Shown here piece by piece: positions 16,930 through 53,949 of a stretch of 64,000 bases of DNA; the first letter of the stretch is position 1, and each line of letters opens with the position of its first letter. A program made the translations under genes and the position numbers. The notes beneath the pieces were generated by a model, which was given only the letters and a program-made list of their open reading frames with translations, ran no database searches and was not told the DNA's origin. Origin of the DNA: Burkholderiales bacterium (GTDB lineage Bacteria; Pseudomonadota; Gammaproteobacteria; Burkholderiales; SG8-41); the NCBI GenBank assembly GCA_035259205.1, contig DATFWO010000036.1:11018-75017 (forward strand). Reading direction: 5' to 3'.

Positions 16930-16942
16930 TCGGCCTCGGGCC

Positions 16943-30671: not shown

Positions 30672-30703
30672 TTTCATCCGCGTTCATCTGCGTTTATCTG
30701 CGG
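30672..30703 (-). repeat. decamer array, family G (CGCAGATRAA on minus strand), 3 units
   Basis: TTCATCCGCG TTCATCTGCG TTTATCTGCG, trailing the ArsR stop. About 29/33 nt identical to 49217..49249 in opposite orientation. Confidence 0.8.
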
Positions 30704-33453: not shown

Positions 33454-33457
33454 CTTA

Positions 33458-33502
33458 TGAGGGATGAGGGATGAGGGATGAGGGATGAGGGATGAGGGAT
33501 GA
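33458..33502 (+). repeat. heptamer array, family A (TGAGGGA), 6.4 perfect units
   Basis: TGAGGGA x6 then TGA, starting 4 nt after stop 33451..33453. Confidence 0.95.
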
Positions 33503-33510
33503 ACGGACAA

Positions 33511-33538
33511 CCCCTCACCCCTCAATCATTACTCATTA
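33511..33538 (-). repeat. heptamer array complementary to 33458..33502, overlapping the stop of the UGSC gene
   Basis: CCCCTCA CCCCTCA ATCATTA CTCATTA (plus strand). CCCCTCACCCCTCA pairs with TGAGGGATGAGGG at 12 of 13 positions. Confidence 0.8.
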
Positions 33539-36416: not shown

Positions 36417-37040
36417 ATGAGCACAGGCAAGGAAGCACGTTTCGTGGTCGCGCCGGAGCGCATGCCGGAAATCCCGGCTGCAAAGATGACCGAAGCGCAG
36501 AAGCAGGCAGTCGCCGAAATCAGCGCCGGCCCGCGCGGCGAGGTGAAAGGACCGTTCGTCGCGTTTCTGCGCAGCCCGGAGCTGATGCGCCGCGTGCAGA
36601 AGGTCGGCGAGTACCTCCGCTTCATGTGCCCGATCGACAAGCGCCTGGGCGAGTTCGCGGCGATCATAGGGGCCCGCGCGTGGTCGCAGCAGTTCGAGTG
36701 GTGGGCGCACTACCGGCAGGCGGTAGCGGCGGGCTTGAAGCGCGAGATCGCCGACGCCGTGGCCGAAGGCCGGCGTCCGGCAGGCATGGCAGAAGATGAA
36801 GAGATCCTCTACGACTTTCTGACCGAGCTCATCAATACCAAGGGCGTGAGCGACACGACGTACGCGCGCGCGGTCGCCAAGTTCGGCGAGCAGGGTGTGA
36901 TCGACCTCACCAGCGTCGTCGGTTATTACACATTGCTCGCGATGGTGATGAACGTCGCGCGCACGGCGGTGCCGGAAGGCCCGTCTCTTCCGCTGCCGGC
37001 ACTGCCACTCAGGGCGACTCCCCTGGTGACTAGAGACTAG
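36417..37040 (+). CDS. carboxymuconolactone decarboxylase (AhpD-like) family protein
   Basis: ...GPFVAFLRSPELMRRVQKVGEYLRF...EFAAIIGARAWSQQFEWWAHYRQA... pattern. The last codons run into a heptamer array. Confidence 0.7.
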   Translation: MSTGKEARFVVAPERMPEIPAAKMTEAQKQAVAEISAGPRGEVKGPFVAFLRSPELMRRVQKVGEYLRFMCPIDKRLGEFAAIIGARAWSQQFEWWAHYRQAVAAGLKREIADAVAEGRRPAGMAEDEEILYDFLTELINTKGVSDTTYARAVAKFGEQGVIDLTSVVGYYTLLAMVMNVARTAVPEGPSLPLPALPLRATPLVTRD

Positions 37041-37069
37041 GGACTTGAGACTAGGGATAAGGGCTGGAG
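37028..37069 (+). repeat. heptamer array, family C, 6 units (left arm flanking the four-helix-bundle gene)
   Basis: GACTAGA GACTAGG GACTTGA GACTAGG GATAAGG GCTGGAG. Overlaps stop 37038..37040. Confidence 0.9.
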
Positions 37070-37117
37070 ATTGACCTGCTTGTACACCTTAATGTCCCTA
37101 GCATCGTTAATGCCTGC

Positions 37118-37489
37118 ATGGGGAATTGGACACATCGAGACCTTGTGGCGTGGCGCGAAGCAATGAAGCTCGCTGAAATGGTGTATCGGGACACCGAGAG
37201 TTTTCCAAAGATGGAACGCCATGGCCTTGCGGCGCAGCTGAGACGTGCCGCGGTGTCAATCCCATCGAACATTGCCGAGGGTTCGGGAAGGAACTCGTCC
37301 AGAGAACTCTTTCAGTTTCTCGGCTTTACCTGCGGTTCTCTTGCAGAGCTCGAGACTCAACTTGAGCTTGCAACAAGGCTGGGATACCTCGAGGCAAGCA
37401 ATCAAGTTGCGAATCAAGCAAACTTCGTTGGAAAGCTCGTCAATGGCTTGCGCAAGTCAATTAAGAAGCGAAGCAACCCCGGTCTCTAG
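37118..37489 (+). CDS. four-helix-bundle protein (23S rRNA-IVS protein / Avd-like family)
   Basis: 123 aa; ...LVAWREAMKLAEMVYRDTESFPKMERHGLAAQLRRAAVSIPSNIAEGSGRNSSRELFQFL..GSLAELETQLELA is the family signature as I recall it. Confidence 0.85.
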   Translation: MGNWTHRDLVAWREAMKLAEMVYRDTESFPKMERHGLAAQLRRAAVSIPSNIAEGSGRNSSRELFQFLGFTCGSLAELETQLELATRLGYLEASNQVANQANFVGKLVNGLRKSIKKRSNPGL

Positions 37490-37508
37490 TCCCTAGTCTC
37501 CAGTCTCT
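37481..37508 (-). repeat. heptamer array, family C inverted, 4 units (right arm flanking the four-helix-bundle gene)
   Basis: GGTCTCT AGTCCCT AGTCTCC AGTCTCT. Its reverse complement matches 37033..37052 at 18 of 21 positions (13 contiguous). Overlaps stop 37487..37489. Confidence 0.9.
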
Positions 37509-38476: not shown

Positions 38477-38575
38477 CTCACTCGGCGCGCTGATGTCGGG
38501 AGAGCAAGAAAAGCCTCAACGCTGTTCGCCTTCCTTCGCGGATTCGCATCCTTCGTGTAAAGCTTTGGCGTTAAC

Positions 38576-38602
38576 AAAAAAGGCCGCGCATCATGCGCGG
38601 CC
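38576..38602 (-). terminator. rho-independent terminator of Bug gene 38619
   Basis: Minus strand GGCCGCGCA-TGA-TGCGCGGCC followed by TTTTTTGTT. It lies just beyond the heptamer array that overlaps the stop codon. Confidence 0.7.
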
Positions 38603-38603
38603 C

Positions 38604-38624
38604 GTCACCCGTCACTCGTCACTC
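38604..38624 (-). repeat. heptamer array, family B, 3 units overlapping the stop codon
   Basis: GTCACCC GTCACTC GTCACTC (plus strand), which reads GAGTGAC GAGTGAC GGGTGAC on the gene strand. Stop 38619..38621 lies inside a unit. Confidence 0.85.
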
Positions 38625-39587
38625 GACCTTGATACCCGAATCGGCCACGACCTTCCTGAACTTCGCGATCTCGCTCTTGATGACGGCTGCGAACTGCTCC
38701 GGCGTGTTGCCGATGGTAACGAAGCCGAGCGAGCTGAAGCGCCCCTTGACGTCGGGAGCCTCGAGCGCGGCGACCGCCTCGCGGTTCACGGCACGCACCA
38801 CTTTGTCCGGCGTGCCGCGGGGCGCGAACAGGCCGTGCCAGATCTGGAAGTCATAGCCCTGCATGCCCTGTTCGGCGATGGTCGGCACGTTGGGGAGCAC
38901 CGGCGAGCGCTGCGCGCTGGTGATACCGTAGGCCTTGAGCTTACCCGCGTCGATGTGCTGCTTGCTGGCGAGCGGCGTAAGGACCGATACGTCCACCTCT
39001 CCCGACAGGATCGCGATCTCCGTGGGCGAGCTTCCCTTGTAGCGCACGTTGTTCATCTTGAGCTGCGTCTGCGCCCACAGCGCATCGCCTGCAAGCTCGC
39101 CGGTTGCTCCTGCCACCCCGACGTTGAACTTGCCGGGCTGCCTCTTCGCGGCGTTGACGAAGTCCGTGAGCGAATTCCCGGGCACTTTGGGATTCGCCAC
39201 GACGACCATGCCGCTCGTCACCAGTTGCGTGATCGGAACGAAGTCGCGCACGGGATCGTACGGCAGGTTGCGGTAGAGGCTCGGATTGATCGCGTGCGTG
39301 CCGCTGTTGCCCACGGCCAGCGTGTAGCCGTCCGGGGCTGCCTTGGCCGCGATGTCCGTTCCCGCGACCCCGTTCGAGCTGCCCCGATTGTCCGCTACCA
39401 TGGCCTGCTTGAGCCCTTCGGTAAGCCGCGGCAGGATCAGCCGCACCGCCGTATCGGACGGACCGCCCGGCGGGACCGGAACGATGATGCGGATCGGCCG
39501 ATTTCCGCTCAAACCTTGAGCGGAAATGTATGAAGGAAACAATGCAGCACAAAGCAGGGCTGCGACGATTTTCAACAGCGCTCTCAT
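38619..39587 (-). CDS. Bug/TctC family substrate-binding protein
   Basis: Start trimmed to ATG 39587 (MRALLKIVAALL...); the upstream MRDDPFGR is just the translation of a heptamer array. IRIIVPVPPGGPSD, PDGYTLAV, VRYKGSS. Confidence 0.9.
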   Translation of the reverse strand: MRALLKIVAALLCAALFPSYISAQGLSGNRPIRIIVPVPPGGPSDTAVRLILPRLTEGLKQAMVADNRGSSNGVAGTDIAAKAAPDGYTLAVGNSGTHAINPSLYRNLPYDPVRDFVPITQLVTSGMVVVANPKVPGNSLTDFVNAAKRQPGKFNVGVAGATGELAGDALWAQTQLKMNNVRYKGSSPTEIAILSGEVDVSVLTPLASKQHIDAGKLKAYGITSAQRSPVLPNVPTIAEQGMQGYDFQIWHGLFAPRGTPDKVVRAVNREAVAALEAPDVKGRFSSLGFVTIGNTPEQFAAVIKSEIAKFRKVVADSGIKVE

Positions 39588-39600
39588 CCGTCCGAACGGG

Positions 39601-39631
39601 TCATCCCTCATCCTTCATCCCTCATCCTTCC
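39601..39631 (-). repeat. heptamer array, family A, 4.4 units
   Basis: TCATCCC TCATCCT TCATCCC TCATCCT TCC, between the ABC stop (39641) and the Bug start (39587). Confidence 0.9.
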
Positions 39632-41876: not shown

Positions 41877-41911
41877 ATCACTCGTCACCCGTCACTCGTC
41901 ACCCGTCACTC
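41877..41911 (-). repeat. heptamer array, family B, 5 units overlapping the stop codon
   Basis: ATCACTC GTCACCC GTCACTC GTCACCC GTCACTC. Stop 41906..41908 lies inside the last unit. Confidence 0.9.
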
Positions 41912-42868
41912 GACCTTGATTCCCGACTGCTTGATCGCACGGCCCCATTTTTCGCGCTCGCTCTTGAGGTGAACCGCCAGCTCCCGCGGCGTGCTGCCGA
42001 TCGCGTCGGTGCCGTCGGTCGCGAGGCGCGATGCGATGTCAGGTTGATTCAGCGTCCTCACGATCTCGCGGTATAGCCGCTCGACGACAGCCTGCTGCAC
42101 GCCGCGCGGTGCCAGCATGGCATGCCACTGCGTTACTACGAAACCGGGGATGCCCGCTTCGATCATCGTCGGGATCTCGGGCGCGGACTTGGCTCGCACC
42201 GCGCTCGTCACGGCCAGGGCGCGCAGCCGCTGCGCTCGCATCAAGGGAAATCCGGATGCGAGTATGACCAGCGTCATTTGCACGCGGCCGGCCAGCATCT
42301 CCGGGTACGCGGCCCCCATGCCCTTGAACGGCACGTGGACCATGTCCGTGCCGGTCATCGTCCGCAGCAGCTCGGTCGCAAGGTGTATCAGCGAGCCGTT
42401 GCCGGTCGAAGCATAGTTGAGCTTGCCGGGATTGGCTTTTGTATAGGCGATCAGCTCGGCCACCGATTTCACCGGCAGCGCAGGGTTGACGAGCAGCACG
42501 TAGGGTCCCGCGGCGACCTGCGAAACCGGCGTAAGGTCGCGGAGAATGTCGTACGGCACCTTGACCAGCATGGAGTGCACCAGCGAAGTCGCGCTCATGA
42601 AAACCAGGGTGTAGCCGTCCGGCGCGGCATTCACCGTGAGCTCCACGGCGATCGAACCGCTGGCCCCCGGCCGGTTGTCCACGACGACGCTCTGGCCGAG
42701 GTACTCGCCGAGCCTGGGAGCGATCAACCGCGCGACGAAGTCGAGGCCACCTCCCGTCCCCGAAGCGACGAGTACCCTGATCGGCCGCGCCGGATAGTCT
42801 TGAGCCGGTAAGCCTGGACTCAAGACCGTCAACAGGAACGCCAACGAAAAGAGCGAGGCGCGCTTCAT
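41906..42868 (-). CDS. Bug/TctC family substrate-binding protein
   Basis: Start at ATG 42868 (MKRASLFSLAFLL...). [44 protein letters not shown]. Confidence 0.9.
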   Translation of the reverse strand: MKRASLFSLAFLLTVLSPGLPAQDYPARPIRVLVASGTGGGLDFVARLIAPRLGEYLGQSVVVDNRPGASGSIAVELTVNAAPDGYTLVFMSATSLVHSMLVKVPYDILRDLTPVSQVAAGPYVLLVNPALPVKSVAELIAYTKANPGKLNYASTGNGSLIHLATELLRTMTGTDMVHVPFKGMGAAYPEMLAGRVQMTLVILASGFPLMRAQRLRALAVTSAVRAKSAPEIPTMIEAGIPGFVVTQWHAMLAPRGVQQAVVERLYREIVRTLNQPDIASRLATDGTDAIGSTPRELAVHLKSEREKWGRAIKQSGIKVE

Positions 42869-42996: not shown

Positions 42997-43735
42997 ATGG
43001 ACCAAGCGCTCTGGGTTACGTGGTACGACCTTCCCGACTCCGATCGGGCGGCCTACCTCGCATGGGTTCACGGCGCATACATCCCGAAAGTCGTGGAACG
43101 ACCAGGTGTGCTGTGGGGCGCCCACTACGCATCCGAAGAGAACGTCGTGCCGTTGGGTGGCGGCAAGGGCCGCGTCAGCCATGTCAAACCCGATTCGATC
43201 CCGGGCGGGGACCGCTATATTTTGATCTTTGGCGCGGAGAACGCCGACGCCTTCGCCAGTCCGAGCCCGCGCCGGTTTCACGCGCAGCTGCCGGAAGGAG
43301 ATCAGGCGATGCTTGCGTTGAGAACCGGCGAGCGCGTCAACGTCATGCTCGAGGAAACACGCGTATACGGACCCGAGGCGAGACTGCCCGAATCCGACGG
43401 CGCGCCCGCCCCGTGCATACAGCTCGGCAGCTTCAATTCCGGCTCGTACGAAGACGAGGATGAGCTCGCTGCCTGGTACGCGCAATGGCGGCTGCCGTCA
43501 CTCAGAACCTTGCCAAGGGGTGGTGCGGGTCCGGAAGCTGGTTTCGATTTCCGGCTGGGCCAAGCACGCGTGTTGTTACGAATTTACCTCGGTGGAAGCC
43601 CGCAACGAGCACTTCATCTACTACGAGCGCGGCCACCCGGAGATGGAGGCCTGGTCGAAGCGGGCCGTGAAGAACCTCATCCACGCCCCCGGCTCGCCCA
43701 ATCTCGCGCGGCGCATCTGGCTTGCCGTTAAATAG
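42997..43735 (+). pseudogene. frameshifted hypothetical protein (two similar half-domains)
   Basis: Frame 1 (MDQALWVTWYDLPDSDRAAYLAWVHG...AAWYAQWRLPSLRTLP) continues sensibly only in frame 2 (GVVRVRKLVSISGWAKHACCYEF...RIWLAVK). There appears to be one extra base in CCAAGGGG at about 43515..43520. Confidence 0.55.
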
Positions 43736-43812
43736 CGTCTCAGATAGTGCGTCCCAGCTGATGCGTTTCAGATAAAGCGTCCCGATAGTGCGTCCCATAC
43801 ACGGCGTCCGCC
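43736..43812 (+). repeat. 13-14-nt periodic array, family H (GCGTCYCA...), 6 units
   Basis: GCGTC(T/C)C or GCGTTTC at 43736, 43749, 43763, 43777, 43790 and 43804. Starts directly after stop 43733..43735. Confidence 0.8.
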
Positions 43813-43850
43813 TCCAGAACCGCTGCAAGCACGCCCCATCCGGGACGTTG

Positions 43851-43895
43851 CACCTGAGACGATTTACCTGAGACGCTGTATCTGAGACGCTGTAT
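43851..43895 (-). repeat. 14-nt array, family H inverted (CTGAGACG), 3 units
   Basis: CCTGAGACG at 43853 and 43867, TCTGAGACG at 43881. It is the reverse complement of the GCGTCTCAG units. Ends 3 nt from the small lipoprotein stop (43899). Confidence 0.85.
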
Positions 43896-44088: not shown

Positions 44089-45384
44089 TTATCTCTCCCG
44101 CGCCCGCATGGAAAAAGCGAGTAAGGCGATGGTGACGGCGAGCAGCACGAGCGCGCTCAAAGCGAGCGACCAGTGTATGCCGATCAGGGCACCGACAACG
44201 CCGACCGTGATGCCGCTGAACGCGCGCAATCCGTTGTTGGAGAGATAGTAGAGCCCGATCAGCCGGCCCCGCAGCTGGGGCGGCGCCTCGAGCTGTATCA
44301 ATGCCTGGATCATCGCTCCATACGCCAGGAACAGAAAACCCGACACGAACATGAGCGCGACTGCGATCGGATAGCTCGTCGCGACGGCGAATCCGGCGAT
44401 GCTGATGCACCAGAGTATGACGAGCACGATCGCAGTGCGCGGACTGGGCTCGAGCAGGCCGCCCTTCGCCTCGAGCGACAAGCCTGCCGTGAGCGCTCCC
44501 GCGGCGTTGGCAGCCAGCAGGACGGCATAGGAAAAATCGGCTTTCTCGGTACCGAGGTCATGCGCATACTCCGGCATCTGAGCCTGAAACGCGTTGCCGA
44601 CCAGGAGCGAGGCCGCGCCCGCCAGAAGTATCATCGAAAAGATCGTGCGGTTTCCGGAAGCTTCGCGCAGCACGGCAAGCGTGTCCGCGAGCCCGGTCGC
44701 GCGCGCCGGCGCGCTCGATTGCCTCCTCGCGGCGCCATACGGCGCTTTCCACAGCCACAACACCAGCGGCAGGTAGATGAGAGCGTTTGCCAGCAGGCCC
44801 ATCGCGGGGCCGAGCAGTAGCATGAGGCCGCCGCCAACCGCCGGGCCCAGCAGTATTCCGAGCTGGCGGCTCGTGGCGTTGAGCCGCACCGCGCTCACGA
44901 TGTGCTCCCGGCCGACGATGTCGTGCAGCAGCAACTGGCTCGCCGGAGACCACAGCACCCCGGCCATTCCGTGCACGATCAGGAGGACCGCCGCGTGCCA
45001 CATCTGTATCGTGTCCGTGAGAAACAGCAGCGCCCACGCGATCGAGACCGCCATGAACAGGAATTGCGCGAGCTGAATGATGCGCCGGGAGTCGTAGCGA
45101 TCCGCCAGGGCACCGAAATAGACCGCGAACAGCAGGAACGGCAGCCAATGGCTCAGCACCGCGAATCCCGCCAGAGCCGGAGAGTGGAATTTCTCGAACA
45201 TGACCCAGTAGCTGATGACATGCTCGATGTTGTCGGCCATCATCGCGGCGGCCGAGGTCAGGAGGTAGCCGCGGAAGCCCGGATGGCGCAGCGCCGCGAA
45301 GGAGCGCAGCGGCGCCCCGGCCGGTTCGGCGCGCGAGGCCGCGCCCTCCTTCTCGCCGCCTGAGGGTAAGCGGGCTTTGTTCAC
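44089..45384 (-). CDS. MFS transporter
   Basis: 431 aa with about 12 TM segments; GALADRYDSRR MFS loop motif. GTG start overlaps the upstream remnant's stop (GTGA). Confidence 0.8.
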   Translation of the reverse strand: MNKARLPSGGEKEGAASRAEPAGAPLRSFAALRHPGFRGYLLTSAAAMMADNIEHVISYWVMFEKFHSPALAGFAVLSHWLPFLLFAVYFGALADRYDSRRIIQLAQFLFMAVSIAWALLFLTDTIQMWHAAVLLIVHGMAGVLWSPASQLLLHDIVGREHIVSAVRLNATSRQLGILLGPAVGGGLMLLLGPAMGLLANALIYLPLVLWLWKAPYGAARRQSSAPARATGLADTLAVLREASGNRTIFSMILLAGAASLLVGNAFQAQMPEYAHDLGTEKADFSYAVLLAANAAGALTAGLSLEAKGGLLEPSPRTAIVLVILWCISIAGFAVATSYPIAVALMFVSGFLFLAYGAMIQALIQLEAPPQLRGRLIGLYYLSNNGLRAFSGITVGVVGALIGIHWSLALSALVLLAVTIALLAFSMRARER

Positions 45385-45741
45385 GCGAAGAGTCTATCGT
45401 CGCCCGCCGGCGCGATGAGCTCCGGACCATCATTTTTCGCGCTGTTGACGCGCAAGCCGACCGGATATGCCCTCATCTCCTCCGCCGGATAGGGCTTGAG
45501 CAGTTGTCCGAGCGCGGCCGTGTCTGAATTCCTGGGATCGAGCCAGGCGTCGTAGCCGATCGCGTGGAGTATTACCGTCATGCGGTCGTAGAGGTTGCGC
45601 ACAAGCTCGTTTGCTTCAGTCGTGATGATCGTAAAGTTTTCGATCGGCGCAGCGCCGCCCTTGCCCGGCCAGAATTCGGAACTCGATCCGCTCCCGGTTC
45701 TTGCGGGAGACCGGTCCGTAGGTGGCGTAGCGGCCGCACAT
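45381..45741 (-). pseudogene. decayed SOS-response-associated peptidase (SRAP/YedK) gene
   Basis: N-terminal MCGRYATYG (ATG 45741). After a frame change, ...EFWPGKGGAAPIENFTIITTEANELVRNLYDRMTVIL..YDAWLDP...MRAYPVGLRVNSAKNDGPELI. About 100 central residues are missing and the HxRMP His reads Y. Confidence 0.65.
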
Positions 45742-45745
45742 GCCT

Positions 45746-45780
45746 GAGTGACGGGTGACGGGTGACGGGTGACGACCGAC
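45746..45780 (+). repeat. heptamer array, family B, 5 units
   Basis: GAGTGAC GGGTGAC GGGTGAC GGGTGAC GACCGAC. Confidence 0.9.
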
Positions 45781-45805
45781 GAAGGCGGTGCAGCGAAGAT
45801 GAACG

Positions 45806-49217: not shown

Positions 49218-49249
49218 GCCGCAGAGAAACGCAGATGAACGCGGATGGC
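49218..49249 (+). repeat. decamer array, family G, 3 units (distal arm of hairpin)
   Basis: GCCGCAGAGA AACGCAGATG AACGCGGATG GC. Confidence 0.8.
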
Positions 49250-49290: not shown

Positions 49291-49324
49291 GCGATCTGCG
49301 TTTATCCGCGTGTATCTTCGGCTC
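49291..49324 (-). repeat. decamer array, family G inverted, 3 units, trailing Bug gene 49326
   Basis: GCGATCTGCG TTTATCCGCG TGTATCTTCG GCTC. Ends 1 nt before stop 49326..49328. Confidence 0.8.
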
Positions 49325-51502: not shown

Positions 51503-52816
<1,314 letters not shown>

Positions 52817-52829
52817 AGTTACTCTCGAC

Positions 52830-52906
52830 CTTGGGATTTGGAGTTTCGAATTTTGGTATTTGAGATTTGCAATTTGGGATTTGTGATTTGGGATTTGTGA
52901 TTTGGG
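52830..52906 (-). repeat. AT-rich heptamer array, family D (ATTTGNG; CNCAAAT on gene strand), 11 units
   Basis: CTTGGGA TTTGGAG TTTCGAA TTTTGGT ATTTGAG ATTTGCA ATTTGGG ATTTGTG ATTTGGG ATTTGTG ATTTGGG. Ends 14 nt upstream of the fahA ATG. Confidence 0.95.
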
Positions 52907-52939
52907 AAAGTGAACCGGCACCGCGGGACGCCGATTCAA

Positions 52940-52963
52940 TCATCCCTCATCCTTCATCCCTAG
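52940..52963 (-). repeat. heptamer array, family A, 3.4 units overlapping stop 52960..52962
   Basis: TCATCCC TCATCCT TCATCCC TAG. Confidence 0.85.
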
Positions 52964-53880
52964 ATGGATGGCGGCTCCTCTCTCACCGCCTGCTCCGCGT
53001 AGCGCATGTCCACGCAGTCCTCGTAAGCAAATTTCCGGTGGAGGAGCCCGCTCGCGAGAGCCGCATCGCGCAACCATTCGAGGCCCTCGCGTTGCAGCAG
53101 CGGTCGCGCGTTCCAGAGACCTATCGCCTTGTAGCTTTCGAAGCAGTAAGTCAGGATCGCAGCGGAAAGGTCAGGAAAGAAGCTGCCAACCGCTCGCGCC
53201 AGATCGGCGGCGCTGTGCGCCGCGATCCATTTTTGGGTACGGTACATCGCTCGGCACATCCTGAGGAGCACCTCCGGATGGCGGTCGGCGTAAGCCCGCG
53301 TGGTATTGAGTGTCGTGTAGGAGACCAGCCCGCGCCGCGCCGCGACGTACCAGACGTGCGCCGCCCCTTCCCGGACCGCCAGGGCGGCGCAGGGATGGAA
53401 GGCCTGGACGATGTCGATTTCGCCGGAGCGCAGCGCTGCGACGTTGTCCGGCATCGAGCGCCCGGGTGCCGCATGAACTCGCGCAGGATCGATGCCGGCG
53501 AGCCTCAAGTCTTGTTGCAGGCACATCCACGGGGTAGGGACCTCGGTTACCGCGGCCACTTTTTCCCCGAGCAAATCCTCGAGGCGGAAGCCCGGTCGCG
53601 GCGCGCGGCCCAGCAGGAAAAACGGATCGCGGCCCACCGCCTCGCAAAAGGCGAGCGCCGCGGCCTGCGGATTCGTCTCCAGCGCGATCATCAGCCGCAA
53701 CGGCCCGCCCCACGACACGTCGCCGTCGCCGGCGATCAGCGATGCCGCCGTGTGCGCCGCATCCGCGGACATCTTGAGGCTGACCTGCAGCCCCTCCGAC
53801 TCGTACGCGCCGAGCGCGATCGGCGCGTAGAACGGCGCATAGAAGACCGCGCGGAAGTTTTCAACCAGCGTGATACGCAT
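52960..53880 (-). CDS. NMT1/THI5-like (NitT/TauT-type) substrate-binding protein
   Basis: MRITLVENFRAVFYAPFYAPIALGAYESEGL... binding-protein pattern. An alternative GTG 53934 would add MAVWTFFLLHPSALILAC (see findings). Confidence 0.6.
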   Translation of the reverse strand: MRITLVENFRAVFYAPFYAPIALGAYESEGLQVSLKMSADAAHTAASLIAGDGDVSWGGPLRLMIALETNPQAAALAFCEAVGRDPFFLLGRAPRPGFRLEDLLGEKVAAVTEVPTPWMCLQQDLRLAGIDPARVHAAPGRSMPDNVAALRSGEIDIVQAFHPCAALAVREGAAHVWYVAARRGLVSYTTLNTTRAYADRHPEVLLRMCRAMYRTQKWIAAHSAADLARAVGSFFPDLSAAILTYCFESYKAIGLWNARPLLQREGLEWLRDAALASGLLHRKFAYEDCVDMRYAEQAVREEPPSI

Positions 53881-53885
53881 ACAAG

Positions 53886-53920
53886 CAAGGATCAAGGCAG
53901 AAGGATGAAGGAGGAAGAAA
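53886..53920 (+). repeat. heptamer array, family F (NAAGGNN), 5 units
   Basis: CAAGGAT CAAGGCA GAAGGAT GAAGGAG GAAGAAA, between the DinB stop and ATG 53880. Confidence 0.8.
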
Positions 53921-53949
53921 GTCCAAACCGCCACAGCTCTACACGAAGT

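What the first reader, a model, noticed from the sequence alone, without database searches (positions are those of the whole stretch)
52830..52906. Eleven contiguous AT-rich heptamers (CNCAAAT) immediately upstream of the fumarylacetoacetase start
A 77-nt array lies 14 nt upstream of the fahA ATG (52816), so it is inside the 5' UTR or promoter. On the gene strand it reads CCCAAAT CACAAAT CCCAAAT CACAAAT CCCAAAT TGCAAAT CTCAAAT ACCAAAA TTCGAAA CTCCAAA TCCCAAG. It is far more AT-rich than its surroundings. It becomes progressively degenerate toward the fahA start, while the distal units are a strict alternation of two variants; this is a gradient expected for a recently expanding array. Unlike the other arrays it precedes a gene. 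It could change promoter-to-start spacing by unit gain or loss (contingency-locus logic) or act as an iterated binding site. It also generates a spurious 41-codon N-terminal extension (PKSQIPNHKSQIANLKYQNSKLQIP) in the ORF track.
Basis: seen in the sequence. Interest (0 to 1): 0.55.

Follow-up and report, generated by a model that had tools for sequence, protein, structure and literature searches.

The report
Heptamer microsatellite before fahA start
The 77-base repeat in front of the fumarylacetoacetase gene is real, but it is one of about twenty similar 7-base repeat arrays at gene boundaries in this bacterium, a kind already described in other bacteria, and nothing indicates that it acts as a switch specific to this gene.

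Summary
Eleven heptamers (CCCAAAT/CACAAAT, decaying toward fahA) lie at 52830-52906 on the minus strand, 14 nt upstream of the fahA ATG, at GC 0.36 against 0.62 in the flanks. The array is not special to fahA. The window, from an uncultured Burkholderiales MAG, holds about 22 short-period arrays at gene boundaries. Period 7 is enriched over all other periods from 4 to 12, and at least seven other arrays also sit just upstream of start codons. Relatives have arrays at the same position with unrelated units. In the 89% FahA orthologue (L004), (CGTGACT)n and its inverse pair into a 32-bp stem; the 78% relative (L001) has a period-8 inverted pair. The target is best read as the C-rich, start-proximal arm of such a pair. 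Its partner, (GGGATGA)3 at the upstream stop codon, is now only 5/7 complementary. The class matches the intergenic heptamer repeats described in Xanthomonas and Nostoc, including the strand rule. The contingency-locus and binding-site readings are not supported. The tract is imperfect, it is identical in a second assembly, related arrays do not vary between 99.9% identical strains, and the unit is not conserved. Function remains inferred: an unstructured, G-poor intercistronic leader.

The parts
52830..52906 (-). Target array: 11 heptamers (CCCAAAT/CACAAAT and decayed units). This is the C-rich, G-poor arm next to the fahA start.
   Evidence: Sense strand A36 C25 T13 G3. It is the most G-poor 77-nt stretch in the 64 kb on either strand, and its mean pairing probability is 0.32 against 0.57 for the surroundings.
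52872..52906 (-). Perfect core of the array: 2.5 copies of the 14-mer CCCAAATCACAAAT, the part most likely to have expanded recently.
   Evidence: longest perfect period-14 run, 35 nt from the distal end.
52911..52938 (-). Central GC-rich hairpin UGAAUCGGC-(10 nt)-GCCGGUUCA between the two arrays, followed by CUUUCCC. It resembles a terminator but has only a weak U tract.
   Evidence: MFE and centroid fold. It does not pass the intrinsic-terminator scan. A central GC hairpin between two arms is also seen in L005.
52940..52960 (-). Partner array GGGATGA AGGATGA GGGATGA. It begins on the last base of the SBP stop codon (TAG, 52962-52960). It is the G-rich arm and carries stop codons.
   Evidence: It is 5/7 complementary to AAATCCC and pairs with the first target units only in short helices (z = -1.4). 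SBP genes in L023 and L021 end in ...GAGGGATGA and ...GAAGGATGA, which suggests the unit was seeded from the ancestral gene end.
52817..52829 (-). 13-nt spacer GTCGAGAGTAACT with a weak Shine-Dalgarno-like GAGAG before the fahA ATG.
   Evidence: Relatives have stronger AAGGA, AAGGAG or AGGAG motifs.
51503..52816 (-). fahA (fumarylacetoacetase), 437 aa.
   Evidence: Pfam FAA_hydrolase_N and FAA_hydrolase. P0001 is 100% identical and annotated as fumarylacetoacetase of a Burkholderiales MAG.
52960..53880 (-). Upstream co-directional gene: NMT1/NitT-TauT-type substrate-binding protein, 306 aa when started at ATG 53880.
   Evidence: Pfam NMT1_2 and NMT1. Homologues are 304-308 aa. The same gene precedes fahA in L004.
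53887..53917 (-). Sister array (sense CATCCTT-type, C-rich) 7 nt upstream of the SBP start. It creates a false 18-codon N-terminal extension from GTG 53934.

Best explanation
The array is a slippage-born heptamer microsatellite. It belongs to a lineage-wide class of short-period arrays that sit at gene boundaries in this uncultured Burkholderiales clade. The typical layout of the class is: stop codon, then a G/purine-rich arm whose units carry a stop codon, then often a central GC hairpin, then a C-rich arm, then the next gene's ribosome-binding site. The target is the C-rich, start-proximal arm at the SBP-fahA junction. In relatives the two arms at this junction are exact inverses and fold into a long stem. 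Here the arm has diverged from its partner (GGGATGA against AAATCCC, 5 of 7 complementary) and has grown on its own, most recently in a 14-nt register, so it no longer forms a long stem. If it is transcribed with the upstream gene, it is an unstructured, G-poor, C/A-rich stretch of about 77 nt directly ahead of a weak Shine-Dalgarno sequence. Any effect on fahA would then come from the physical properties of the leader: spacing, an open ribosome-landing region, or a possible Rho loading surface. It would not come from a sequence-specific regulator or from phase variation. Shown: the array itself, class membership, the strand rule, turnover of units at the orthologous locus, and weak pairing in this genome. 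Inferred: origin by slippage, co-transcription with the upstream gene, and every functional consequence.
For: Period 7 is specifically enriched: 6 strict arrays against 0 for every other period from 4 to 12. 22 of 27 TRF arrays lie at gene boundaries although only about 14% of the window is non-coding. About 16 are within 20 nt of a stop, 8 overlap one, and about 8 are within 55 nt upstream of a start. Unit families recur: GGGATGA at about 6 loci, GTGACGN at about 5, GAGACTN at about 3. The G-rich, stop-bearing strand is sense for the terminating gene in 11 of 12 one-sided cases. Orthologous locus L004 (FahA 89%, same SBP-fahA synteny) has TAA-(CGTGACT)x5.6 ... (GCCACCAGTCACGA)x2.4-RBS-ATG; it folds into a 32-bp stem with z = -4.5, and none of 200 shuffles folds as well. 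L001 (78%) has (GTGATGAA)x3.4 and its inverse, z = -6.2. The coding flanks of L004 align at 82% and 88%, but the intergenic DNA does not align at all. The window's own junction folds with z = -1.4 and leaves most of the array unpaired. The same class occurs in other relatives: L002, L005-9, L022 and L023. Published class: heptamer SSRs are over-represented in intergenic DNA of Xanthomonas (GGGAATC) and Nostoc (GGGGATT). They lie within 0-50 bp of ORFs, with the G-rich strand coding after stops and non-coding before starts. There are 70-75 inverted pairs per Xanthomonas genome, and length and sequence vary between sister species while position is kept (PMC4692102). The target, with GGGATTT on the non-coding strand 14 nt before the start, obeys that rule.
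Against: The unit CCCAAAT is unique in the 64 kb and is the most AT-rich and longest array there, so it is an outlier within the class. No canonical G4 motif exists at the target, unlike the Xanthomonas and Nostoc units. No transcript data exist, so it is unknown whether the array is in a 5' UTR, in an intercistronic region or in untranscribed DNA. No sigma-70-like promoter or intrinsic terminator passes the scans in 52600-53200. The descent of AAATCCC from TCATCCC is inferred from 5/7 similarity only. The class as a whole has no demonstrated function in any organism.
Confidence: 0.62

Rival explanations
1. Contingency (phase-variable) locus. Gain and loss of units by slippage changes promoter-to-start spacing or leader structure and switches fahA expression, as with the (ATCTTTC)n tract upstream of hmw1A in Haemophilus influenzae.
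For: It is a heptamer array directly upstream of a start codon, with a perfect 35-nt core. The precedent is real: hmw1A expression is inversely proportional to heptamer number, through a 5'-UTR hairpin cut by RNase III (PMC12721329). Units at this junction turn over completely between relatives.
Against: The longest perfect 7-nt-period run is 13 nt, and only 2.5 perfect 14-mers exist. In hmw at least 11 repeats are found in nature (section heading). From general knowledge, interruptions stabilise microsatellites. The only other assembly of the locus has the same 11 units. A sister array pair is invariant in five contigs at 99.90-99.97% identity with 0 gaps. fahA is a catabolic enzyme, not a surface or host-interaction gene. 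Arrays of the same class lie at 3' ends and between convergent genes, where switching makes no sense. Rehm et al. rejected phase variation for the class on the same grounds.
Confidence: 0.06
2. Iterated DNA-binding site. The AT-rich heptamers bind a regulator cooperatively, or nucleate an H-NS/MvaT-like nucleoid protein, and so control fahA transcription.
For: GC is 0.36 in a genome of GC 0.64, and there are 11 phased CAAAT motifs. From general knowledge, AT-rich islands in GC-rich genomes are preferred H-NS-type targets.
Against: The unit is absent from the rest of the 64 kb. Orthologues carry unrelated, GC-richer units (CGTGACT, GTGATGAA) or no array at all upstream of fahA, so no conserved operator exists. 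No promoter-like site is predicted nearby. No regulator gene is adjacent.
Confidence: 0.07
3. Still-active RNA hairpin. The CCCAAAU arm pairs with the (GGGAUGA)3 arm around the central GC hairpin, forming a processing site (RNase III) or a terminator/insulator between the SBP gene and fahA, as the perfect pairs in relatives probably do.
For: The MFE and centroid structures pair GGGAU/AUCCC, GAU/AUC and GGGA/UCCC around a 9-bp GC hairpin. The same layout with fully complementary arms occurs in L004, L001 and L005. The hmw 5'-UTR shows that a heptamer arm paired with a G-rich partner can be an RNase III substrate.
Against: z is only -1.4, and 19 of 200 shuffles fold as well. Only the first two to three of the 11 units take part; units 4-8 have pairing probabilities of 0.07-0.25. 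The helices are 3-5 bp long and separated by internal loops, which from general knowledge is well short of the roughly 20 bp of duplex RNase III prefers.
Confidence: 0.12
4. Rho-dependent attenuator. The untranslated, G-poor, C-rich, unstructured 77 nt after the SBP stop act as a rut site, making fahA transcription conditional on Rho activity or on ribosome loading.
For: C25/G3 on the sense strand, the lowest G count of any 77-nt window in the 64 kb, and low pairing probability. The length and composition fit the textbook description of rut sites (general knowledge, not tested).
Against: The array is A-rich (36 of 77) rather than strongly C-rich. Other windows have larger C minus G values, and these are also arrays, so this would be a property of the class, not of fahA. 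There are no transcript or termination data. Co-transcription with the SBP gene is unproven.
Confidence: 0.08
5. G-quadruplex or other non-B DNA on the non-coding strand (GGGATTT units), as proposed for the Xanthomonas and Nostoc heptamers.
For: The plus strand carries GGG tracts, and the unit GGGATTT resembles Nostoc GGGGATT.
Against: No canonical G3+N1-7 x4 motif is found at the target. GGG tracts alternate with GTG, giving 11-nt loops. The only array in the window with a canonical G4 motif is 33461-33498.
Confidence: 0.03

Closest known systems
Intergenic heptameric simple-sequence repeats of Xanthomonas (GGGAATC) and Nostoc/Anabaena (GGGGA[T/C]T; the cyanobacterial heptamers of Mazel et al. 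1990, known to me as STRR), as analysed by Rehm et al. 2015 (PMC4692102). That paper cites Mrazek et al. [quoted passage not shown]
   Same: Period 7 is specifically over-represented. About 90% of arrays are intergenic and lie within 0-50 bp of ORF ends or overlap stop codons. The G-rich strand is coding after a stop and non-coding before a start. Single arrays and inverted pairs coexist. Neighbouring genes are ordinary metabolic genes. Position is kept between relatives while length and sequence change. The host is a high-GC genome. The target unit GGGATTT is one or two bases away from GGGGATT and GGGAATC.
   Different: This genome uses several unit families (GGGATGA, GTGACGN, GAGACTN, CCCAAAT, plus 8-, 10- and 14-mers) rather than one dominant unit. 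The target cannot form a canonical G4. Most stop-proximal units here carry a stop codon, which GGGAATC does not. The taxon (uncultured Burkholderiales) was not covered by that work.
Haemophilus influenzae hmw1A/hmw2A (ATCTTTC)n 5'-UTR repeat (PMC12721329, PMC8262952)
   Same: A heptamer array lies between upstream sequence and the start codon. The repeat arm pairs with a G-rich partner in the leader. In relatives of this window the pair forms a long duplex that would suit RNase III.
   Different: The hmw tract is long and perfect, varies within populations and controls an adhesin. The fahA tract is imperfect, showed no length variation in the little data available, has a poorly complementary partner and precedes a catabolic enzyme.
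TAACTGA direct repeats of marine Beggiatoaceae, cyanobacteria and Bacteroidetes (MacGregor 2015, PMC4679880)
   Same: Heptamer direct repeats lie within a few nucleotides upstream of start codons of unrelated genes, and are proposed to act post-transcriptionally as unstructured protein-binding leaders (S1, Csp, CsrA candidates).
   Different: There a single conserved unit (TAACTGA) is used in two to six copies and indirect repeats are almost absent. Here the units differ from locus to locus and inverted pairs are common.
REP/BIME-type extragenic palindromes
   Same: Location just after stop codons and between co-directional or convergent genes. Potential to form stem-loops in mRNA. Abundance across the genome.
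   Different: REPs are single conserved imperfect palindromes, spread by RAYT transposases. Here the stems are built from tandem short units whose sequence is locus-specific and partly seeded from the local stop-codon context. No RAYT was looked for.

Membership tests
Intergenic heptameric SSR class (Rehm 2015; Mrazek 2007) | Tandem arrays of period 7 over-represented relative to neighbouring periods | tested here: met
   6 strict arrays at period 7 against 0 at each of periods 4-6 and 8-12. TRF lists about 20 period-7/14 arrays in 64 kb.
Intergenic heptameric SSR class (Rehm 2015; Mrazek 2007) | Predominantly intergenic, close to ORF ends, sometimes overlapping stop codons | tested here: met
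   22 of 27 arrays are at gene boundaries, and 79% of array bases are non-coding against about 14% of the window. 8 arrays overlap a stop. The target is 14 nt from the fahA ATG.
Intergenic heptameric SSR class (Rehm 2015; Mrazek 2007) | Strand rule: G-rich strand coding after a stop, non-coding within 0-50 bp before a start | tested here: met
   11 of 12 one-sided stop-proximal arrays follow it. [quoted passage not shown]
Intergenic heptameric SSR class (Rehm 2015; Mrazek 2007) | Occurs singly and as convergent (inverted) pairs | tested here: met
   Window pairs at 16936/16980, 33457/33510, 37028/37477 and 43734/43841. Pairs in L004, L001, L002 and L005.
Intergenic heptameric SSR class (Rehm 2015; Mrazek 2007) | Position kept between relatives while length and sequence vary | tested here: met
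   The SBP-fahA junction carries arrays in the window, L004 and L001, with unrelated units. The flanks of L004 align at 82-88%, but the intergenic DNA does not align.
Intergenic heptameric SSR class (Rehm 2015; Mrazek 2007) | G3-4 tract in every unit (GGGNATC type), giving G-quadruplex potential | tested here: not met
   There is no canonical G4 motif at 52830-52906, because GGG alternates with GTG and then decays. This feature defines the G4 subclass studied by Rehm et al., not heptamer SSRs in general.
Phase-variable contingency SSR (hmw1A type) | Long uninterrupted tract of identical units | tested here: not met
   The longest perfect period-7 run is 13 nt, with 2.5 perfect 14-mers, and units 6-11 carry 1-4 mismatches.
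Phase-variable contingency SSR (hmw1A type) | Unit number differs among strains or reads of one population | tested here: inconclusive
   Only one further assembly of the locus was found (L014). It has identical length and is essentially the same population. A sister array pair is invariant among five contigs at 99.9% identity. Read-level data are not available.
Phase-variable contingency SSR (hmw1A type) | Lies between the promoter and the start codon of the controlled gene | tested here: inconclusive
   It is upstream of the start codon, but no promoter is predicted in 52600-53200. The gene may be co-transcribed with the SBP gene 143 nt upstream.
Phase-variable contingency SSR (hmw1A type) | Controls a surface, virulence or restriction-modification gene under fluctuating selection | tested here: not met
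   The downstream gene is fumarylacetoacetase.
Rho utilisation (rut) site | About 70-80 nt of untranslated, C-rich, G-poor, weakly structured RNA | tested here: met
   C25/G3 in 77 nt, the lowest G count in the window, and mean pairing probability 0.32. This is composition only.
Rho utilisation (rut) site | Rho-dependent 3' ends downstream | not testable with these tools
   Needs Term-seq or bicyclomycin experiments.
REP/BIME or MITE mobile repeats | The same element sequence dispersed at many loci, with terminal inverted repeats or a palindrome | tested here: not met
   The unit is unique in the 64 kb on both strands. The target has no inverse partner except the 5/7 match to GGGATGA.
Known structured RNA families (Rfam 15) | A match at or above the gathering score | tested here: not met
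   0 matches in the whole window.

The most novel reading that the evidence does not exclude
The arrays would not be neutral microsatellites. They would be a maintained, lineage-specific system of gene-boundary RNA elements: two complementary arms of tandem 7-nt units built around terminator-like hairpins, with a fixed polarity (the arm bearing stop codons in all three frames is always 5'), seeded from the local stop-codon context and kept complementary by templated copying between the arms. The fahA array would then be an orphan C-rich arm that has been co-opted as a length-tunable, unstructured leader (Rho loading or ribosome standby site) setting fahA output relative to the upstream gene.
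Probability: 0.12. Interest if true: 0.6.

Novelty: new member of a known kind. Interest (0 to 1): 0.3.

Why it matters
For this locus, the result removes a tempting over-interpretation: the repeat is not a fahA-specific switch. It also corrects two gene models, because arrays create false N-terminal extensions of fahA and of the upstream SBP gene. More broadly, it adds an uncultured Burkholderiales clade to the few lineages known to be filled with heptamer arrays at gene boundaries, and the function of this class has remained open since the 1990 cyanobacterial report. Three regularities seen here could make that question testable. The stop-bearing arm is always 5'. The arms flank a central GC hairpin. 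The units are seeded from the native stop-codon context.

Tried and rejected
- **Exact-sequence look-ups:** the window's FahA and the 95% relative P0002 returned nothing, so the closest usable orthologue is at 89%.
- **Metagenome scan:** the single scan, anchored on the FahA N-terminus, gave ten loci. Only L014 was close, and it proved to be the same population: 100% identical apart from six mismatches in the last 30 nt of the contig. It therefore cannot test length variation.
- **SBP relatives:** the closest reach only 80% identity, and none is followed by fahA.
- **Promoter and terminator scans:** both found nothing in 52600-53200.
- **Rfam:** no match anywhere in the window.
- **G4:** the canonical regex found no motif at the target.
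- **Long hairpin with the GGGATGA arm:** rejected as the main reading, because z = -1.4.
- **Mobile-element reading:** rejected, because the unit is unique and stop-proximal units appear locally seeded.
- **CsrA-type GGA sponge for the GGGAUGA/AGGAUGA arrays:** considered, but it does not apply to the target, whose sense strand contains no GGA.
- **uORF 52662-52943:** starts in the GGGATGA array, runs through the target array and overlaps fahA out of frame. Judged spurious; not tested further.
- **Literature:** Mrazek et al. 2007 (PMC1895974) is not held and is cited only through Rehm et al. One search failed on a term-length limit. No paper on heptamer arrays in Burkholderiales was found.

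Full report
**Observation.** On the minus strand, 52906 to 52830 reads CCCAAAT CACAAAT CCCAAAT CACAAAT CCCAAAT TGCAAAT CTCAAAT ACCAAAA TTCGAAA CTCCAAA TCCCAAG. TRF gives 52831-52907, period 7, 10.9 copies, 74% matches. The first five units are a perfect alternation, that is, 2.5 copies of a 14-mer. Units 6-11 carry 1-4 mismatches, and the longest perfect 7-nt-period run is only 13 nt. GC is 0.36 against 0.62-0.63 in the flanks. The motif is far above chance: 6 matches against 0.8 expected, all inside the array. Thirteen bases (GTCGAGAGTAACT) separate the array from the ATG at 52816. That start agrees with the 437-aa NCBI protein of a Burkholderiales MAG (P0001, 100% identical) and with homologue lengths. 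The 478-aa ORF from TTG 52939 is therefore a spurious extension through the array. A separate JGI contig (L014) reproduces the locus with 11 units.

**The array is one of many.** A period scan finds six strict arrays at period 7 and none at any other period from 4 to 12. TRF lists about 27 short-period arrays. Of these, 22 lie at gene boundaries although only about 14% of the window is non-coding. About 16 lie within 20 nt of a stop codon, and eight overlap one. Units fall into recurring families: GGGATGA/TCATCCC at about six loci, GTGACGN at about five and GAGACTN at about three, plus 8-, 10- and 14-mers. Several arrays are inverted pairs: 16936/16980, 33457/33510, 37028/37477 and 43734/43841.

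That is incorrect:
- 45748-45781 ends 6 nt before the MCGRY start of an SRAP gene.
- 53887-53917 ends 7 nt before the SBP start at 53880, a start supported by homologues of 304-308 aa.
- 39601-39630 overlaps a start codon.
- 36372, 34093, 49220 and 13017 lie 17-54 nt upstream of starts.

**Orientation.** For arrays next to a stop codon, the strand that carries stop codons (the G/purine-rich one) is the sense strand of the terminating gene in 11 of 12 one-sided cases. Arrays next to a start show the C-rich strand in sense. In the inverted pairs I could read in the window and in relatives, the stop-bearing arm is the 5' arm in eight of eight informative cases. This is a hand count.

**Orthologous loci.** L004 has 89% FahA identity and the same SBP-fahA synteny. 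It carries TAA-TGAGG-(CGTGACT)x5.6, then 86 nt, then (GCCACCAGTCACGA)x2.4, then TGTGCAAGGATGACCA-ATG. The two arrays are inverses and fold into a 32-bp stem, with z = -4.5 and none of 200 shuffles as stable. L001 (78%) has (GTGATGAA)x3.4 and its inverse upstream of fahA, z = -6.2. L004's coding flanks align to the window at 82% and 88%, but the intergenic DNA does not align at all. More distant loci have no array before fahA: L002, L005-10, and L011-L020 other than L014. Some of them carry the class elsewhere. Relatives of the SBP gene show arrays that start on the stop codon itself. L022 has TAA(GGCGGAA)x4.9. In L023 and L021 the gene ends ...GAGGGATGA and ...GAAGGATGA. The window's (GGGATGA)3 array, which begins on the last base of the TAG at 52962-52960, was therefore probably seeded from the ancestral gene end.

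**What the target is.** The SBP-fahA junction in the window has the common layout: stop, then (GGGATGA)3, then a 9-bp GC hairpin (52911-52938), then (CCCAAAT)n, then a weak SD, then ATG. The target rotated (AAATCCC) matches the exact inverse of its partner (TCATCCC) at 5 of 7 positions. The predicted fold pairs only the first two to three units in 3-5 bp helices, with z = -1.4. Units 4-8 have pairing probabilities of 0.07-0.25. I therefore read the target as the C-rich arm of a former pair. It has lost complementarity and has grown alone, most recently in a 14-nt register.

**Likely mode of action.** Nothing shows a function. On the sense strand the array is A36 C25 T13 G3. It is the most G-poor 77-nt stretch on either strand of the 64 kb, and it is weakly structured. 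If fahA is co-transcribed with the two upstream co-directional genes, the array is an open intercistronic leader in front of a weak SD. No promoter or intrinsic terminator passes the scans in 52600-53200. Such a leader could favour ribosome landing or offer a loading surface for Rho. Both are inferences from general knowledge. Other top C-minus-G windows in the region are also arrays, so this is a property of the class rather than an adaptation of fahA.

**Rival readings.**
- **Contingency locus.** The precedent is hmw1A in H. influenzae, where a heptamer tract in the 5' UTR forms a hairpin with a G-rich partner that RNase III cuts (PMC12721329). Here the tract is imperfect, the gene is catabolic and the second assembly has the same length. 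A sister pair is invariant among five contigs at 99.90-99.97% identity without a single gap.
- **Iterated binding site.** The unit is unique in the window and is replaced by unrelated units in orthologues.
- **G-quadruplex.** There is no canonical motif at the target; only 33461-33498 qualifies.
- **Known RNA family.** Rfam gives no match.
- **Mobile element.** The unit is not dispersed, and stop-proximal units look locally seeded.

**Comparison with what is known.** Rehm et al. 2015 (PMC4692102) describe the same kind of thing in Xanthomonas (GGGAATC) and Nostoc (GGGGATT). Heptamers are specifically over-represented and 89-93% are intergenic. They lie within 0-50 bp of ORFs and can overlap stop codons. 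The G-rich strand is coding after stops and non-coding before starts. There are 70-75 inverted pairs per Xanthomonas genome. The neighbouring genes are metabolic. Position is kept between sister species while length and sequence vary, and the function is unknown. They cite Mrazek et al. [quoted passage not shown] 1990 for the cyanobacterial heptamers. MacGregor 2015 (PMC4679880) describes TAACTGA repeats just upstream of start codons. The target meets every class feature tested except G4 potential. The lineage differs in using many unit families rather than one dominant unit.

**Verdict.** The repeat is real and its description is accurate. It is an ordinary, if long and AT-rich, member of a known and still unexplained class. 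I rate it a new member of a known kind, with interest 0.3. The class-level regularities (polarity, arms around a central hairpin, seeding at stop codons) are the more interesting by-product.

Noticed in passing
window 37023-37508: Inverted heptamer arrays (GACTAGA-type at 37028-37057, its inverse at 37477-37508, 86% complementary) bracket a 420-bp low-GC (0.53) insert. The insert encodes a 123-aa 23S_rRNA_IVP (four-helix-bundle, Avd-like) protein at 37118-37489, Pfam E = 3.5e-31. The left array also supplies the in-frame TAG stop of the preceding gene (36417-37040). From general knowledge, the layout recalls rRNA intervening sequences, which are excised at a flanking stem.
   Followed up: partly
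window and loci L001, L004, L005, L023: Polarity rule. In inverted pairs the arm whose units contain a stop codon (TGA, TAA or TAG, hence stops in all three frames) is the 5' arm in 8 of 8 informative pairs. Stop-proximal single arrays carry stops in the sense of the terminating gene in 11 of 12 cases.
   Followed up: partly
window 38603-38625 and 41878-41912: Two TctC/Bug paralogues both end ...ATCAAGGTCGAGTGA, and the array (CGAGTGA/CGGGTGA)n continues directly from that stop codon. At 38570-38600 a canonical terminator follows (GGCCGCGCATGATGCGCGGCC plus a T run). The array seems to be seeded by the gene end or duplicated together with the gene.
   Followed up: no
window 39601-39630: The (AGGATGA/GGGATGA)n array between two co-directional genes contains the in-frame ATG (39611) of the downstream TctC gene as well as SD-like AGGA/GGGA motifs. 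Here an array supplies a start codon and ribosome-binding site.
   Followed up: no
window 53880-53934: The array 53887-53917 creates a false 18-codon N-terminal extension (MAVWTFFLLHPSALILAC, which looks like a signal peptide or lipobox) on the SBP ORF from GTG 53934. Homologues of 304-308 aa point to ATG 53880 as the real start.
   Followed up: yes
window 45381-45741: The SRAP (SOS-response-associated peptidase) gene is disrupted. An N-terminal fragment MCGRY... stops after 41 codons, and a separate 73-aa ORF matches SRAP profile positions 160-213. This is a pseudogene or an assembly error.
   Followed up: partly
window 43734-43891: Inverted pair of 14-mer arrays (AGCGTCTCAGATAA-type, 51-nt arms, 76% complementary, 56 nt apart) immediately after a stop codon.
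   Followed up: no
window 30673-30702, 49220-49247, 49294-49316; L001 6532-6675: Period-10 arrays of a shared family (CGCAGATGAA in the window, CACAGATAAA in L001) also occur as near-inverse pairs next to gene ends. Unit families are therefore shared between genomes whose FahA proteins are 78% identical.
   Followed up: no
L022 10920-10953: A perfect (GGCGGAA)x4.9 array (100% matches) overlaps the TAA stop of the SBP orthologue, 20 nt before the next gene. This is the cleanest example of an array growing out of a stop codon.
   Followed up: no
window 52662-52943 (minus strand): A 93-codon ORF starts at an ATG inside the GGGATGA array, runs through the target array and overlaps the fahA start out of frame. 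It is probably spurious.
   Followed up: no
window 33457-33524: (ATGAGGG)x6.6 starts 3 nt after a stop codon, with a short inverse (ACCCCTC)x2 8 nt downstream. It is the only array in the window with a canonical G-quadruplex motif (33461-33498).
   Followed up: partly
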